Origin: Podarcis vaucheri
Lineage: Eukaryota
Length of the DNA stretch: 64,000 nt
Direction: 5' to 3' (one strand)
Assembly (NCBI GenBank): GCA_965113315.1
Contig: OZ220368.1
Below, piece by piece: positions 12,001-18,000 of this stretch (the first letter of the stretch is position 1; each line of letters starts with the position of its first letter). Position numbers: made by a program.

Positions 12001-15000
12001 AAACTGCACCTGCACTTCTATTTAATTGGGGTGAATAAGCATCGTTCACATTTCCTTAAAAGTAAAGGAACAGAACATACGTTAACATACGTTAAGTAGA
12101 AAACCTCACTCTCCACTGTCAAAGGCAGTTATGTCTCTGAATACCAGTTGCAGAGTATCACAGGTGGGGAGAAGGCTGTGGCACTTGGGTCCTGCATGCA
12201 GGCATCTCGCACGTATCTGCTTGGGCACTGTGAGTACAACATGCTGGATTATAGGGGCCTCTTTTTCACCTGATCTGGTAGGGCTTCTGTTACGTTATTC
12301 ACCTAGATATTTAATACACTGAGTTTTGCTTTAGAGAAACAGACCTCTCCCCCCCCCCAATATCCGATTAGTTCTTGAAGTATCCAGTTTATCATAAACC
12401 ATGTTAATCTCAATGGGGCTTCTACTAGCAGCTTGGGGCAACACAGTATAACTTTACAGATTTAAGTACCATAAAGTAAGTGTATCCAGGGATCAGGGAG
12501 CATACTTGCATCGAATGCTATGCAAGTACAGCTAACAATTCTGTTTTAGGAATAGTTAGAATGTGGGGGGGGGGACCCCTAAATGCCCGCCACCTGTTGT
12601 TACTTTTCCAATAGATTCATACAGAGCGTTCGCCTGCTCAATAGGCACAGAGATTAAACCACAGCTGCGATTTATTCACTACTGTCTTGTGCACTTCAGC
12701 AAAGGAATGTGGAATGCCATTGTTGAGAGCTCTACAATTTTGCTGGCTTTTTGCTGTGACAAGTTCGTATTAACCTATCCAAAATAGGTTTTAAAAGGAG
12801 CTGGGCACATTTTATAGGTTCTAAATTATGGTTTTAATTTCTAGAGGTACATTTCTTACACCCATCCAGTTGCTAAAGTTGTGGCCAAAGTAGCATCCTT
12901 CTCCATGCTGCTAATGTACAACAAGTAAAAATACAACATAAAATGACTTGTTTCTAGAGTACAATATCTCAAGGATGTGCCTTCACACTGAGTCTATCTA
13001 TGGCATCCCTCTGTATACAGCTTAATTGTTTTTGAAGTGCTCTCATGCAAGTGCTTTCTGAACTTGGAACTCACATCACTTTTCATGGAGGTGGGAAGAT
13101 CCAGTAAACGCAACTTAAGGCATGAGACAAGGGATGTGCTGCACAGCAATTTACTCCTGAGTTCAACCTATATAGAAGGGCAAGTACTACCTGAACAAAC
13201 CTGGCTAGTGCTTGTCTCCAGGGAAAAGGAGGTACCAAACTGCTGCTTGACTTTTGAAACTAGACCTCTGTTGTATAGCAAATAAAGAACAGGAGCATTT
13301 TACAATAGGGTACTTTCGGCTGGGAAACAAATTCATTACTGTATTGCATTTAGATTTCGTTTTATTACCGCATCTGTTGTTGCTCTTTGGAACGTAAGGC
13401 TTTAATATAATCCCTGGTAGAATTAAAAAACAGTCACCTTTTGGCTGGGAAGAGCATTTTACCTTTTCAGAAGTTGGTATCAAATATATTTGATATCAGA
13501 AGAGATTTTCCCTAGATTGGACCAAGCACAGTTAGGAAGTCATAGGTGCCCTTAAGCTGATACCCATAACTAGCAAGGCTGCAGCCACCTTAAAAGGTTA
13601 ACATCTGGTCCTTTAGAAGACTAGGAGGAGCAGAGGGCAAATAAAGTGACAAATCCTTTTTCAGCTGTAGGCATCTGCTTACGAATTTTTCATTTTCAAA
13701 AAGAAACCTGTTACTTGCATCAAGTATTTTGGTGGCATTTATATTGTCTCATAATTGTCTGACCAAGTATTACTATTACAATGAGATGTCTCATTGATCA
13801 ACAAGAAGTCCAGTGTTCTATGAAAGGTTGATTAGTGCATGGGCTGCCAATCCAATGATGGCTGGAAAATTTATAGCAGAACAGGCTGATCCAAGCACCT
13901 GTGAATCCTGCTTGGAGGAGCACTCTACAGCAACCTAGGCCATGGCTTCTGCCATTTGCAGTCCATCTTTTCACAATCATGCCCATGCAGGTTATTTACC
14001 CATGTGCTTACAATGTTGAAAGGTGAGCAGCCATATAGTAGAGGCTCAAGCCATTGCATGCGATGCAGCAGAGGTTGCAGAGGGAAGAGAAACCATGATA
14101 GATGCTCAGTCTGCTTGTCAGCTCCCTGTAATGGGAATCCAGTTGACGCAGCCGCATAAAGGACCTCTGCGGGAACCACCCAGCATCCTCTCCCAAGCCA
14201 TAGCTTTGCTCAACCAGGTGCATTTCAGCCATAATATCTGAAGTCACTTGCCCAAACCACTGAGCGTTTAGAGCAGCAACTATGACACAAATGAAGAAGA
14301 CTGTAATCTGGAAAGGAAAGATAGTTATGCTATGAACTATTTATTGTCGGGTAGCATCAGCCAGTATGTGGGGGGTTTTCATACCACATGTAGCTGCAAT
14401 CACTTTGCAGGAATAATACTCGGATTCATGGCTGGTACCTAGGCAGGTTCCTGTGGCCCCAGCAGTGCATATCATCCTTAAAATAACCCTGTGGGTTGGC
14501 CCTGCCATTGCATTTTCAAATTAGGATTAATAGGGTATATTTTGGTGCAAGATGTTCTGTTCCTGTGCCAAGTCACCAAACTGTGCTCCTTTGCTGCTCT
14601 GCCCCACCACCTACTGTCTGAATACTACCCCCTACCAGCCATGGTGGTAGTTACAGGAAACAGAAAGAGTGCCCTGCTAGTAAGTGTGGGTGGCTTCTCG
14701 GTCTGACCACTTCTTCCTAAGGCAGGCATGCCATCACAAGCGAGGCCATGTAACAAAGCGGAATGGCGGACTAACGGATGCACGTGATATTTAAAAGAGG
14801 GAGCCCACTACCTGCATGGTTTCTTCCTCATTGAGAAGTTCGCTGGGGTGACACATGGCAAATATGGTCAGGTTGATGAAAGCACAAGCTGAGCCAATGT
14901 GGAAGTAATAAGGGAAGAGGCAACTCTGAATGAATCCGAATGTATGTTGTGAGAGATTGTTGCCCATCACAAAACCTGCAAGAACAAGTGGGGCGAGCAC

Positions 15001-18000
15001 AAAGGAACAAGGTTATTTAAATGATACAAATGCTAAAAATAATAATGAATAGCTGTTTTTTTAAAAAAACATTGGATGCAAAATTAACAGACGTATACAG
15101 TTTTAGATAATCTCTTCTAGCTTCAGAATGGCTTATTTCCATAGCTGTCAACCTTCCCTTTTTTGCGGGAAATTCCCTTATTTCAGCGCCGCTATCCCGG
15201 ATTGTTAGATATCCCGTAGACTGGCCCCGGGACTGGTGAGGCTGCTGAGCCCTTACATTTTCAAATCCAAAAGTTGACAGCTATGCTTATTTCCATTGTT
15301 TATTAGGATTTTCCACACTCGGTTTTACCTTCACATCATCATCATTCAGCTGCTTGGTGTCTAGGAATATAGACTCGCCAATCCAGAAAGTAAATCTTCT
15401 TGCCAACCAGTGTTATCCCTATTTGCCCAGCCTACATCTTACTGCCAAACTAAAGTAGCCCTTTTCCCCTTTCTGAATTCACTGCATATGCCAGTCCAGA
15501 GCACTCCCATTTCTCCAAATGTCGAATCCCTCCCTAAATAAATTAACTGTGATTAATTTGGCCTTTAAGCATCTATGTGCAAAGAGTGGGGCTGTGGAAC
15601 GGTCCCAACCTACTGGCTATAAAAGTCACCCAGATCTGCATTCCCCAGAAAGTTGAAAGGAAAACCAAGTGGAGCACTTTCACTAAGGTCGAGGGATCAG
15701 CATCTGTGGACATGGTACTTCAAGAAGATAGTCGCTTGCAACTCCCTTGGCCAAACTTCAACTTGGGAGACACTCGTTTTACCTGTTCAGACACACTGAG
15801 AGGCAAAAGAAAGTTACTTCAGCTTCAAAGTAGTCAGAAATGTCCTGTCCCCTCAAAATTAAAGTGTAATTGTCACATGTGTTCTCTCTCACACCACATT
15901 TCTTAGGGGTATATGTTTTGTATTGCTGCTGTGAAGGAGTTGAATTTAAATGGACCGGCTAATAGTGCTTAACAAAATTCTCAGCCAGTGCTCCCAAGAG
16001 AGAGCTATTCTCAGACATCTGTGAACAGTGGCGCTCATAACCTCCCCTTTTGACTAGACTGATAAAAAGATGGCCAGGTCATCACACCATATGCCACCAT
16101 AAAGCCAGGAGCAGGTTTTAAAGGCTTTGGGCAACATCTGGAACCATTAATGCCAATGAGCATTTAACCAGTGATTACAGAGGGATGTGGGTTGCATTCA
16201 TAAGGACTTGGAACACAGACTTCTTATTTATTCAATTTTTTCCAGCATTTATTCCATGGTCTTCAAATTACAGTGAAGGGAAGCTTCTCTGTTACTTCAG
16301 GTAAATTCTGACCCCAGTCAATGCTTAGGCTGGGTAAAGTAGGTCTGGATTTAGCTCAAAGCAATTATTCCAGCCTACCAAAAATTAGGGCCACTTCCAA
16401 TGTCACAAATTTATGTTGTAGTCCCACAACAGCTGGAGACCCAAGTTTGGGAAACCCTGCTAGAGGAAATGTTCCATGTGTGGTGGTTGCCATGTGAGGG
16501 GCACATCAATTATTATGGAGAAATTCTTTAAATGCCCAGAGTGCTGTAACAAAGTGGATGCAAAGGGCATAATGTAAATTTTAGTATGGGCCAAAACCAT
16601 TAGAATGGTGTGGGTTAGCAGAAACTCAGACTCCTACATTATTAGTATCTAGAAACCCACAAGCAGGAATGAAAGTAATTATTCAGTAATTGTCTATAGC
16701 AGGTCCCGCAGCCATCCCACCCAGTCACCCTCCAATCACCTACCAAAAATACACTTGCTGTTACAGACCCTCAGGTGGAGAATCAACTACAAATGTAGAT
16801 CCTGACTAATAGTTGCTCACCAAAGCCACTTGCTATAACAAAAGAGTCCATACCTGAATTAATTTAAATGGTTTTACATGGTTTTTATTGCATTGTGAAA
16901 CTGCTTTGAGAGGCTTCATGGGAAGTGACTCTTAAATTGTTATGGATTGCAGCAACATGCTCCTTATTCCAAGCAGTAAAATATTTTCAGCGGGGTAACG
17001 CACCTCCTGATCTGAACAGAATACTGCATATAATATAGGAAAAGCAAACTAGGAGAGTAACAGGTTTTTTCCACTCCTTAAACTTCCAAGTACCTCAAGA
17101 TGGGTAGTTTACTTTCAGAGAAACACATAAGCTGACACTTGTCTTCCTCATCCCTTCAACCTGCAACACAAAAGGGAAACTTGGAGGCTAGTAAAAGACA
17201 AATACCGTATTCCCCAAGGGATTCTCAGATAAATTGCAATTAGGAGTACATGAGCGAGAACTCTGCATAAAGGAATCCCGCGATTATAAATTGCACTCTT
17301 TGATTCCCCTTAGTATAGCGGTAGTGACACTGTACCCTCAGTCTGAAAGAATAGCAGGTGCTTCAGCCGAGTGGGTGGCCAAAGACATTTCAAACGGGTT
17401 TTCAGCGACTAGCAAGTTGAAATATTAACTTCAAAACAAAACTTTCCTTACCACCGGTGAATGACGTTGCACTGGTGCGTTTTTCAGTGTGTCACTCAGA
17501 CTCCCCGCCGCCCAAGGCTAGAATCTCAGAAACACAAACACTAGCAAAGCTGCCGGATCAGATCCCAAAACAAGAATGGCATCTTTACCATCAAAATAAG
17601 CAGGGTCGGAAAGGATACGATCAAGAACCGGGCACAACACTCAAAAGCAGCGGATCCACACATCCCACATCAAACGGCCCCCAAGCGCGGCCAGATAATT
17701 GCATAGAAAGCATTTCGCTGTGCAAACAGACGGAACTACATCCCGGAACTGGGAAGGAAAGTCCCCCTTGCGGCGGGAATGCAGAGACAGACTGGACTGG
17801 GCGATAGGGAAAATCCTCGTGCTAGTGCTAAAAAGAAGCCAGAAACGCAAGCGGAGGGGGGCGTGTCGCGATGTGCAAGTTTGCACAGGGGGACTTTTCT
17901 CTTTTGCAAGTGCTCTTTTACCTACGACTGGAGGAAACTTCAGCCCGTACCCCAGCAATCGTGGGGAAAACGGGTGCCAATCCGAGAGGGGAGCGTCCCC

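What the first reader, a model, noticed from the sequence alone, without database searches (positions are those of the whole stretch)
14008..15713. Divergent, intact TMEM205 paralogue at a locus where human has none: candidate lost ohnologue
Seen: complete 187-aa ORF with TMEM205 motifs, clean splice sites and its own CpG island, but strongly diverged in loops and Cys-rich at the C-terminus. Known: human TMEM205 is at 19p13.2 near RAB3D/DOCK6; TTC4/FAM151A/ACOT11 are at 1p32.3, and 1p31-32 is paralogous to 19p13 (RAB3B, DOCK7, SSBP3/SSBP4). Inference: a whole-genome-duplication paralogue retained in reptiles and lost in human, functionally uncharacterised.
Basis: partly seen in the sequence, partly recalled or inferred. 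Interest (0 to 1): 0.72.

Follow-up and report, generated by a model that had tools for sequence, protein, structure and literature searches.

The report
Lizard TMEM205-like gene, ancient paralogue
This is an intact lizard copy of "TMEM205-like", an old sister gene of TMEM205 that sharks, fish, reptiles, birds and a few mammals still carry; databases already list it, but nobody has studied it.

Summary
On the minus strand, three GT-AG-bounded coding exons (15713-15614, 14975-14812, 14307-14008) give 33+1+54+99 = 187 codons. Exon 2 alone passes the Pfam DUF4149 cut-off. Taken exon by exon, the window is 32/33, 54/54 and 94/99 identical to the RefSeq protein "transmembrane protein 205-like" of the lacertid Zootoca vivipara.

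Vertebrates hold two clades, an "L" type (this gene) and a "C" type (named TMEM205), and each contains ray-finned fish, amphibians and squamates (support 99/97 and 100/97). Ten squamate species have both types, where contig sizes are listed on contigs of different size.

The L type also occurs in sharks, rays, a chimaera, birds, alligator, two marsupials, a sloth and an elephant shrew, so "retained in reptiles" is too narrow.

Not shown here: that the duplication was a whole-genome one, that C-type genes sit beside RAB3D, and that human lacks the gene.

There is no CpG island over the coding sequence; the nearest starts 1.8 kb upstream.

The gene is ordinary, already auto-annotated and functionally unstudied. 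Interest is modest.

The parts
15614..15713 (-). Coding exon 1 of TMEM205-like: ATG at 15713-15711, 33 codons plus the first base of codon 34; donor GT at 15613-15612
   Evidence: Sequence; translation P0003; 32/33 identical to Zootoca P0004
14976..15613 (-). Intron 1 (638 nt, GT...AG, phase 1)
   Evidence: Read; the junction IAS|FVMG matches P0004
14812..14975 (-). Coding exon 2 (2 nt completing codon 34, then 54 codons); core of the DUF4149 domain
   Evidence: Translation P0002; Pfam PF13664 E 8.5e-9, 36 bits; 54/54 identical to Zootoca
14308..14811 (-). Intron 2 (504 nt, GT...AG, phase 0)
   Evidence: Read; the junction ETMQ|ITVFF matches P0004
14008..14307 (-). Coding exon 3 (99 codons plus stop at 14010-14008); carries the CNLCCIACN cysteine cluster of the last helix
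   Evidence: Translation P0001; 93 relatives, best E 7.6e-57; 94/99 identical to Zootoca
16088..16163 (-). Candidate alternative first coding exon (ATG 16163-16161, 25 codons plus 1 nt, donor GT at 16087-16086, same phase as exon 1). It would replace the first helix.
   Evidence: Sequence. Its ...KPLKPAPGFMVAYG end resembles the N-terminus ...LKCLKPGPGFMVAYG of Rhineura floridana 'TMEM205-like isoform X3', P0005. No transcript evidence.
17501..18500 (.). CpG-rich stretch (two islands, 17501-18100 and 18201-18500), 1.8-2.8 kb upstream of the ATG; candidate promoter or non-coding first exon. Assignment to this gene is unproven.
   Evidence: CpG observed/expected 0.72 and 0.61, GC 0.56
13361..13366 (-). 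First minus-strand AATAAA below the stop codon (about 645 nt downstream); candidate poly(A) signal
   Evidence: a consensus match only
6117..9894 (+). Neighbour TTC4 (the part detected): TPR repeats and the Cns1/TTC4 Wheel domain. It converges tail to tail on the gene.
   Evidence: Pfam TPR_1/TPR_2 at 6117-6449 and 8274-8669; Wheel at 8729-8971 and 9757-9894
27924..35219 (+). Neighbour FAM151A (exons of the Menorin domain), head to head with the gene
   Evidence: Pfam Menorin PF10223 in five frames covering profile positions 1-241, E down to 3.8e-28
39556..53364 (-). Neighbour ACOT11 (exon with START domain; weak thioesterase match)
   Evidence: Pfam START E 4.1e-12 at 39556-40242; 4HBT E 0.007 at 52741-53364, below the cut-off

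Best explanation
The locus is the lacertid orthologue of the gene that RefSeq calls 'transmembrane protein 205-like' and that UniProt calls si:ch211-121a2.4 in zebrafish. It is an intact three-coding-exon gene for a 187-residue membrane protein of the DUF4149/TMEM205 family. It is one of two vertebrate paralogues that arose before the last common ancestor of jawed vertebrates. The other, the C type, is the one databases name TMEM205. Both have been kept side by side in ray-finned fish, caecilians and squamates.

Shown here: the gene structure, family membership, clade membership, coexistence of both types in 14 species, and the TTC4 / FAM151A / ACOT11 neighbourhood.

Inferred, not shown: the protein forms a bundle of four long membrane helices with a short amphipathic helix in the loop before the last one (AlphaFold model of the Zootoca orthologue). 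By analogy with human TMEM205 it would reside in secretory or recycling-endosome vesicles and affect what those vesicles export. The cysteine cluster conserved across the clade in the last helix (CNLCCxxCN) is the most likely point of functional difference from TMEM205, for example as a site of S-acylation or of soft-metal/thiol chemistry.

My confidence is about 0.9 for the identity and evolutionary part and about 0.2 for the mechanism. The figure given is for the identity part.
For: Gene model. DUF4149: exon 2 alone at 36 bits against a cut-off of 24.6; the Zootoca orthologue at 79.8 bits. Orthology to Zootoca 'TMEM205-like': 32/33, 54/54 and 94/99 identical exon by exon. None of the six differing positions (8, 120, 134, 135, 136, 159) is one of the 14 columns invariant across 56 L and C proteins.

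Two clades: L 99/97*, C 100/97*, outgroup 100/98* among 64 rows. With the window exons as separate rows, all three fall in a starred set of 7 squamate L proteins plus themselves. The L residue is present at 5 of 5 diagnostic columns.

Both types in one species: Paroedura, Heteronotia, Sceloporus, Rhineura, Elgaria, Tiliqua, Hemicordylus, Varanus, Salvator, Pogona, Amia, Microcaecilia, Spinachia and Danionella. Where contig sizes are given, the two types lie on contigs of different size (for example Sceloporus 251.5 against 334.3 Mb, Amia 26.95 against 49.4 Mb).

Constraint: 69 % identity between lizard and chimaera, and L evolves no faster than C (Sceloporus-Amia 65 % for L, 61 % for C).

Fold: pLDDT 82.6, pTM 0.77, helices 9-40, 43-75, 83-123, 132-144 and 146-182.

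Analogy: human TMEM205 has 189 aa, lies at 19p13.2, and is linked to exosomal/vesicular cisplatin efflux with RAB8 (PMC12530797, passages read). It undergoes constitutive endocytosis and co-localises with Rab11 (PMC9730683, abstract read).
Against: No transcript or protein evidence for this locus, and no dN/dS, because no orthologous nucleotide sequences were available. The full-length window protein was never assembled or searched, so the fold and the full-length Pfam score are those of the Zootoca orthologue. No named mammalian TMEM205 appeared among the 120 rows shown of 392 hits, so the equation 'C type = orthologue of human TMEM205' rests on database names and recall. The six outgroup rows are unnamed representatives, so the lower bound on the age of the duplication is open. 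No lacertid C-type protein was among the rows shown, so the presence of both genes in this very genome is inferred from ten other squamates. The mechanism is analogy only: Foldseek found 0 PDB matches at E <= 0.001, and the biochemical activity of TMEM205 itself is unknown.
Confidence: 0.88

Rival explanations
1. The two vertebrate clades came from an ancient small-scale duplication (a segmental or single-gene copy moved to another chromosome) before the radiation of jawed vertebrates, not from the 1R/2R whole-genome duplications. The gene would then be an old paralogue but not an ohnologue.
For: Nothing run here separates this from a WGD origin. The tree only places the split before the bony-vertebrate ancestor, and, given sharks in L, before crown gnathostomes. 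No paralogous gene pair was demonstrated within the window: TTC4, FAM151A and ACOT11 have no 19p13 partners that I tested.
Against: The timing fits 1R/2R. By recall, the human 1p31-32 and 19p13 regions share several duplicated pairs (DOCK7/DOCK6, KANK4/KANK2, RAB3B/RAB3D, JAK1/TYK2, NFIA/NFIX). Human TMEM205 lies at 19p13.2 (PMC12530797), beside RAB3D and DOCK6 in the gene list of PMC5237311, section 18.
Confidence: 0.2
2. It is the genome's only TMEM205, the canonical orthologue simply moved next to TTC4.
For: NCBI names the same clade plain 'transmembrane protein 205' in birds, alligator, sharks and zebrafish. No lacertid C-type protein was among the rows shown.
Against: Ten squamate species carry both an L and a C protein. 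L and C are separated by starred branches, and proteins of one species are only 42-48 % identical. The window exons carry the L residue at 5 of 5 diagnostic columns.
Confidence: 0.03
3. It is a recent reptile-specific duplicate or a processed retrocopy of TMEM205 that diverged fast.
For: High divergence from C-type proteins (38-49 %).
Against: It has two introns with GT-AG borders. Orthologues at 62-71 % identity exist in cartilaginous fish, ray-finned fish, caecilians, birds and four mammals. Its rate is no higher than that of the C type.
Confidence: 0.01
4. It is an unexpressed or decaying copy: an open frame kept by chance or only recently silenced.
For: No expression data. No CpG island over the first coding exon.
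Against: Intact start, stop and four splice sites. 180 of 186 compared residues are identical to another lacertid genus, and all 14 family-invariant residues are kept.
Confidence: 0.04

Closest known systems
'Transmembrane protein 205-like' of Zootoca vivipara (RefSeq protein, P0004) and its squamate orthologues
   Same: Same length (187 aa) and same two splice junctions. Exon by exon, 32/33, 54/54 and 94/99 residues are identical. Other squamates are 81-89 % identical to P0004.
   Different: Six substitutions, at positions 8, 120, 134, 135, 136 and 159. Three of them cluster in the loop before the short helix.
Zebrafish si:ch211-121a2.4 (NCBI: 'transmembrane protein 205', P0256) and shark, ray and chimaera 'TMEM205' (e.g. 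Callorhinchus, P0249)
   Same: Same L clade. They are 64-69 % identical to the lizard protein, have the same CNLCCxxCN cluster and end in ...LSTL/LTTL.
   Different: N-terminal extensions of 6-13 residues in some. Their plain name 'TMEM205' hides that they are not the C-type gene.
Canonical (C-type) TMEM205, e.g. Anolis P0349, Sceloporus P0304, Xenopus laevis P0384; human TMEM205 by name
   Same: Same Pfam family (DUF4149) and about the same length (188-189 aa). 14 columns are invariant, including W23, G24, Q26, H44, W105, E121, G127 and N166. The helix layout is presumably the same.
   Different: Separate clade. Identity is 38-49 %. Five fixed differences: L41V, F48L, I49V, S62L and L155F. 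Fewer cysteines: 2-6 against 5-10. By the literature it lies on a different chromosome block (human 19p13.2, PMC12530797); here the neighbours are TTC4, FAM151A and ACOT11.

Membership tests
DUF4149 / TMEM205 family (Pfam PF13664) | Match to the Pfam model above its gathering score | tested here: met
   Exon 2 peptide alone: 36 bits against a cut-off of 24.6. The longer frame 14794-15012: 40.6 bits. The Zootoca orthologue: 79.8 bits over profile positions 2-101 of 102. Exons 1 and 3 alone gave no match.
DUF4149 / TMEM205 family (Pfam PF13664) | Small protein of four membrane-spanning helices | tested here: met
   AlphaFold2 model of the Zootoca orthologue (not of a joined window protein): four long helices plus one short one, pLDDT 82.6.
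DUF4149 / TMEM205 family (Pfam PF13664) | Residues invariant in vertebrate members (14 columns of alignment A2) | tested here: met
   The window differs from P0004 only at positions 8, 120, 134, 135, 136 and 159. None of these is an invariant column.
TMEM205-like (L-type) clade | Falls inside the L clade in a family tree | tested here: met
   Exons 1, 2 and 3 as separate rows all sit next to Zootoca inside a starred squamate L set. The L clade has support 99/97 in the careful tree.
TMEM205-like (L-type) clade | L-specific residues at the columns that separate L from C | tested here: met
   5 of 5 columns carry the L state: L41, F48, I49, S62 and L155.
TMEM205-like (L-type) clade | Conserved position beside TTC4/FAM151A in other species | not testable with these tools
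   No eukaryotic genome collection was on hand. The only hint is that bird L-type proteins sit on contigs of 30-44 Mb.
Canonical TMEM205 (orthologue of the human 19p13.2 gene) | Groups with proteins named TMEM205 of amphibians, squamates and ray-finned fish (C clade) | tested here: not met
   It lies on the other side of a 100/97 branch and is 38-49 % identical.
Canonical TMEM205 (orthologue of the human 19p13.2 gene) | Neighbourhood of RAB3D, CCDC159, DOCK6 (gene list of PMC5237311, section 18) | tested here: not met
   The window's neighbours are TTC4, FAM151A and ACOT11. No Ras-family/RAB, DOCK or any other Pfam match fitting those genes appeared among the 424 frames.
Ohnologue pair (1R/2R whole-genome duplicate) | Duplication node older than the bony-vertebrate ancestor | tested here: met
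   Both clades hold ray-finned fish and tetrapods, and L also holds six cartilaginous fish.
Ohnologue pair (1R/2R whole-genome duplicate) | Duplication node younger than the split from invertebrate chordates | tested here: inconclusive
   Six outgroup representatives fall outside L+C (100/98), but they are unnamed, so their taxa are unknown. The look-up of their names was not available.
Ohnologue pair (1R/2R whole-genome duplicate) | The two copies lie in chromosome blocks that are paralogous as wholes | not testable with these tools
   Only the L locus was seen. The 1p31-32 / 19p13 paralogy is recalled. My searches for a paper to cite for it found none that states it.

The most novel reading that the evidence does not exclude
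TMEM205-like is a functionally distinct, cysteine-rich sister of TMEM205 that jawed vertebrates have kept for over 400 million years and that boreoeutherian mammals, human included, have lost. Birds and crocodilians may conversely have lost the C type, so that the 'TMEM205' of chicken or alligator is not the orthologue of the human gene (hidden paralogy). Its conserved CNLCCxxCN helix would then mark a separate activity, such as S-acylation-dependent sorting or thiol/soft-metal handling in secretory vesicles, which human cells lack or cover with TMEM205 alone.
Probability: 0.3. Interest if true: 0.45.

Novelty: new member of a known kind. Interest (0 to 1): 0.3.

Why it matters
In itself it matters little: it is one more small membrane-protein gene of a known family, already named by annotation pipelines in dozens of species.

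Two practical points follow. First, database names conflate the two paralogues. Birds, alligator, sharks and zebrafish carry an L-type gene named plain 'TMEM205'. Cross-species inferences about the human cisplatin-resistance gene TMEM205, and knock-outs in zebrafish, which I expect to hold both types since its relative Danionella does, can be misread.

Second, it is a clean case of an old duplicate retained from sharks to marsupials and apparently dropped within placentals. It could serve to ask what TMEM205-family proteins do, a question still open even for the human gene. I found no paper that treats the vertebrate TMEM205-like gene. searched 'ch211-121a2.4', 'TMEM205-like', 'TMEM205L' and 'transmembrane protein 205-like' and found 3 papers, none with a term in the title or abstract and one full-text mention each. 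searched 'TMEM205' plus 'paralog' and found 17 papers, none on this by title or abstract.

Tried and rejected
1. The listing of cluster members, to name ten unnamed representatives, could not be made (shared database switched off). Names came instead from the third homologue search.

2. Foldseek of the model against the PDB gave 0 matches at E <= 0.001, only generic helical bundles. There is no structural lead to a mechanism.

3. Pfam at E <= 10 on L and C proteins gave no second family beyond DUF4149, apart from an Ost5 match at E 0.11 on the Anolis C protein, taken as chance.

4. ESM Atlas with the Anolis C protein listed only clusters named 'Si:ch211-121a2.4' and 'Transmembrane protein 205', with taxa no finer than Chordata. 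It did not help to place mammals.

5. Literature for TMEM205 linked to TTC4, FAM151A, ACOT11 or MROH7 in any species: 39 papers hold at least 2 of the 5 terms, and of the 30 listed only two combine TMEM205 with one of these genes, neither a synteny study by title or abstract.

6. Literature to cite for the 1p31-32 / 19p13 paralogy: plus passages of PMC4422726, deal only with the teleost duplication, so the paralogy stays recalled.

7. PMC5237311, section 18: 'eight of nine' genes flanking human ANGPTL8 (a list that includes TMEM205) are linked on anole chromosome 2 and gar LG6. The figure is not held, so which gene is missing is unknown.

8. Considered and rejected: pseudogene, retrocopy and reptile-specific duplicate (see the rival explanations).

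9. Not attempted: complex prediction, because no binding claim is made.

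
Full report
WHAT IS THERE

The gene lies on the minus strand. Reading and the frames, coding exon 1 runs 15713..15614. Its ATG is at 15713-15711 in the context ACCATGT, and it holds 33 codons plus one base. Its donor GT is at 15613-15612. Exon 2 runs 14975..14812, behind an AG at 14977-14976 and before a GT at 14811-14810. Exon 3 runs 14307..14011, behind an AG at 14309-14308, with the stop at 14010-14008. The introns are 638 and 504 nt.

The window has no N. Following the operators' note, I treated the model exon by exon (peptides P0003, P0002 and P0001). 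I never joined the exons. Wherever a full-length protein was needed I used the named Zootoca vivipara RefSeq protein that the exon-3 search returned.

IS IT REAL

Exon 2 alone passes the Pfam gathering score for DUF4149 (36 bits against 24.6). Exons 1 and 3 alone match nothing in Pfam. Exon 3 alone found 93 proteins at E <= 0.001 among 134 candidates, the best at 7.6e-57 and 95 % identity: 'transmembrane protein 205-like [Zootoca vivipara]', 187 aa. Exon by exon the window matches that protein at 32/33, 54/54 and 94/99 residues. The protein reads straight across both inferred junctions. So the model is right, and the window comes from a lacertid close to Zootoca.

It is the only DUF4149 match among the 424 frames of 55 aa or more in the window.

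No CpG island covers the coding exons. The nearest islands are 17501-18100, 18201-18500 and 18901-19400. They lie in the roughly 10 kb between this gene and the divergently transcribed FAM151A.

SURROUNDINGS

- TTC4 lies on the plus strand. TPR repeats are at 6117-6449 and 8274-8669, and the Wheel domain at 8729-8971 and 9757-9894. A large CpG island at 2101-3900 sits upstream. TTC4 converges on the gene's 3' end.
- FAM151A (Menorin domain, five frames between 27924 and 35219, plus strand) follows.
- ACOT11 (START domain at 39556-40242, minus strand; a weak thioesterase match at 52741-53364) comes next.

WHICH TMEM205

Searching with the full-length Zootoca protein gave 177 hits, of which 120 were listed:
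- squamates, all named '-like' (81-89 %);
- alligator (74 %);
- many birds (57-67 %), named plain 'TMEM205';
- chimaera, sharks and rays (62-69 %);
- bowfin, sturgeon and teleosts, including the zebrafish protein that UniProt calls si:ch211-121a2.4 (64 %);
- two caecilians;
- four mammals named '-like': Tasmanian devil (71 %), koala (70 %), two-toed sloth (64 %) and elephant shrew (62 %).

The exhaustive representative search (504 hits at E <= 0.001, the best 150 listed) also showed full-length proteins at only 36-49 % identity. Some of these I fetched. A local BLAST showed that they form a second type.

I aligned parts of three of them plus P0109 (A1) and used that as the last homologue search (392 hits among 6635 candidates, 120 listed). 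All named rows are 'transmembrane protein 205' (a few are '-like') from teleosts, gar, bowfin, bichir, sturgeon, paddlefish, frogs, salamanders, a caecilian and 18 squamate species. No mammal, bird, crocodilian, turtle or cartilaginous fish is among the 120 rows shown. With 272 hits unlisted, that absence proves nothing.

Ten squamates occur in both lists: Paroedura, Heteronotia, Sceloporus, Rhineura, Elgaria, Tiliqua, Hemicordylus, Varanus, Salvator and Pogona. So do Amia, Microcaecilia, Spinachia and Danionella. Where contig lengths are listed, the two proteins of a species sit on contigs of different length.

TREE

The careful tree had 64 rows: 31 L, 27 C and 6 unnamed distant representatives as outgroup, built with IQ-TREE LG+C20+F+G4 on 188 columns. 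L is one side of a branch at 99/97, C at 100/97 and the outgroup at 100/98. In 200 bootstrap trees L is a single group in 99 % and C in 100 %. Inside each clade the main taxon groups (ray-finned fish, cartilaginous fish, squamates, birds) are recovered, but several deep forks are open and some joins depart from the species tree. The L proteins of mammals branch at the base of L with weak support for the rest (86/86), which I do not interpret.

The rows I chose are a subset of the lists: 31 of the roughly 150 L hits and 27 of the 120 C rows shown. I left out most birds and teleosts, all fragments and all unnamed hits.

In a second, quick tree (47 rows), the window's three exon peptides, entered as separate rows, all sit next to Zootoca within a starred set of squamate L proteins.

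Five alignment columns separate L from C almost perfectly, and the window has the L residue at all five. Proteins of the two types within one species are 42-48 % identical. Across the lizard-bowfin split L keeps 65 % and C 61 %, so L is not a fast-evolving copy.

The refuting scenario, one translocated TMEM205, is out. The gene is an old paralogue. The split predates the bony-vertebrate ancestor and, because L contains cartilaginous fish and is sister to C, predates crown jawed vertebrates. That timing is what a 1R/2R ohnologue would show, but timing is all I have.

The outgroup rows are unnamed. The paralogy of human 1p31-32 with 19p13 (DOCK7/DOCK6, KANK4/KANK2, RAB3B/RAB3D, JAK1/TYK2) is my recollection. 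Three attempts to find a paper stating it failed.

That human TMEM205 is at 19p13.2 and has 189 aa is in PMC12530797 (passages read). That RAB3D, DOCK6 and CCDC159 flank it is in the gene list of PMC5237311 (section 18 read). That paper says eight of nine such genes are linked on anole chromosome 2 and gar LG6, but its figure is not held and supplements are closed, so I cannot say whether TMEM205 is among the eight.

'Lost in human' was not tested, and I examined no human sequence. The pattern (marsupials, a xenarthran and an afrotherian have it, and no boreoeutherian is among the rows listed) suggests a loss within placentals rather than at the base of mammals.

That the C clade contains the human orthologue rests on database names. 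The two unnamed 189-aa representatives that might be mammalian (P0106 at 42 % and P0142 at 37 % identity) I left unfetched and unused. An unnamed mammal-like fragment that I had fetched (P0166) I set aside.

HOW IT PROBABLY WORKS

An AlphaFold2 model of the Zootoca orthologue, made with the 56-row alignment A2, has pLDDT 82.6 and pTM 0.77. It shows four long helices (9-40, 43-75, 83-123, 146-182) and a short one (132-144) in the last loop. The PDB has no significant structural relative (0 matches at E <= 0.001), and Pfam offers no second family.

Fourteen columns are invariant over both types: W23, G24, Q26, H44, Y57, L69, L81, W105, E121, G127, L141, Y148, N166 and L177. The window keeps them all.

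What is known of the sister protein comes from cancer cell work. TMEM205 is linked to cisplatin resistance through vesicular or exosomal export, and it co-localises with RAB8 and Rab11 (PMC12530797 passages; PMC9730683 abstract). My best guess, by analogy only, is a small membrane protein of secretory or recycling vesicles.

The L clade differs by more cysteines (5-10 against 2-6 per protein) and by a conserved CNLCCxxCN stretch in the last helix. This is the obvious place to look for a separate function, such as S-acylation or thiol/soft-metal chemistry. This step is inference with low confidence (about 0.2).

NOVELTY AND VERDICT

It is not a discovery of a new kind. RefSeq and UniProt already list it in dozens of species, though under inconsistent names, and I found no paper that discusses the vertebrate gene.

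The useful by-product is the naming problem: bird, alligator, shark and zebrafish 'TMEM205' entries belong to the L clade, not to the clade of amphibian, squamate and fish TMEM205. Interest is modest (0.3).

LEFT UNCHECKED
- the joined window protein (not made, by instruction);
- names of representatives (could not be made);
- synteny in any other species;
- human and other boreoeutherian genomes;
- expression;
- dN/dS;
- supplementary files and figures of the papers cited.

Noticed in passing
window 16088-16163 (-): A short frame (ATG at 16163, 25 codons plus 1 nt, GT donor) upstream of exon 1. It is in the right phase to splice to exon 2. Its end ...KPLKPAPGFMVAYG resembles the N-terminus of Rhineura floridana 'TMEM205-like isoform X3' (P0005). 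It may be an alternative first exon giving a protein without the first helix.
   Followed up: partly
(protein lists), not the window: Database names mix the two paralogues. L-type genes are named plain 'transmembrane protein 205' in birds, alligator, sharks, bowfin and zebrafish, and '-like' in squamates and mammals. Microcaecilia and Amia each have two different proteins with the same name.
   Followed up: partly
(protein lists): Possible reciprocal losses. No snake, frog, salamander or turtle is among the L rows listed. No bird, crocodilian, turtle, mammal or cartilaginous fish is among the C rows listed. Both lists are cut at 120 rows, so this is only a lead.
   Followed up: no
window 15714-27923: No HEAT/MROH-type or other Pfam match lies between TMEM205-like and FAM151A, or between it and TTC4. 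By recall, human has MROH7 between FAM151A and TTC4, so gene content and perhaps TTC4 orientation differ here.
   Followed up: partly
window 18990-19189: A 60-bp minisatellite, 3.3 copies at 90 % match, inside the GC-rich stretch 18901-19400. It gives long open frames on both strands that match no family.
   Followed up: no
window 25822-26328 (+): A 169-aa open frame containing MTASSMKCPSTGRKG followed by a hydrophobic stretch of about 25 residues. It is probably the first coding exon (membrane anchor) of FAM151A. Its only Pfam match is a chance-level ETRAMP hit (E 0.0014, below the cut-off).
   Followed up: no
window 23051-23111 and 22901-23400: A 20-bp tandem repeat (3.1 copies) lies within a further CpG-rich stretch about 3 kb upstream of the putative FAM151A start. 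Its role is unknown.
   Followed up: no
window 13281-13366: AATAAA occurs on the plus strand at 13281-13286 and on the minus strand at 13361-13366. The 3' ends of the convergent TTC4 and TMEM205-like transcripts may lie within about 100 nt of each other or overlap.
   Followed up: no
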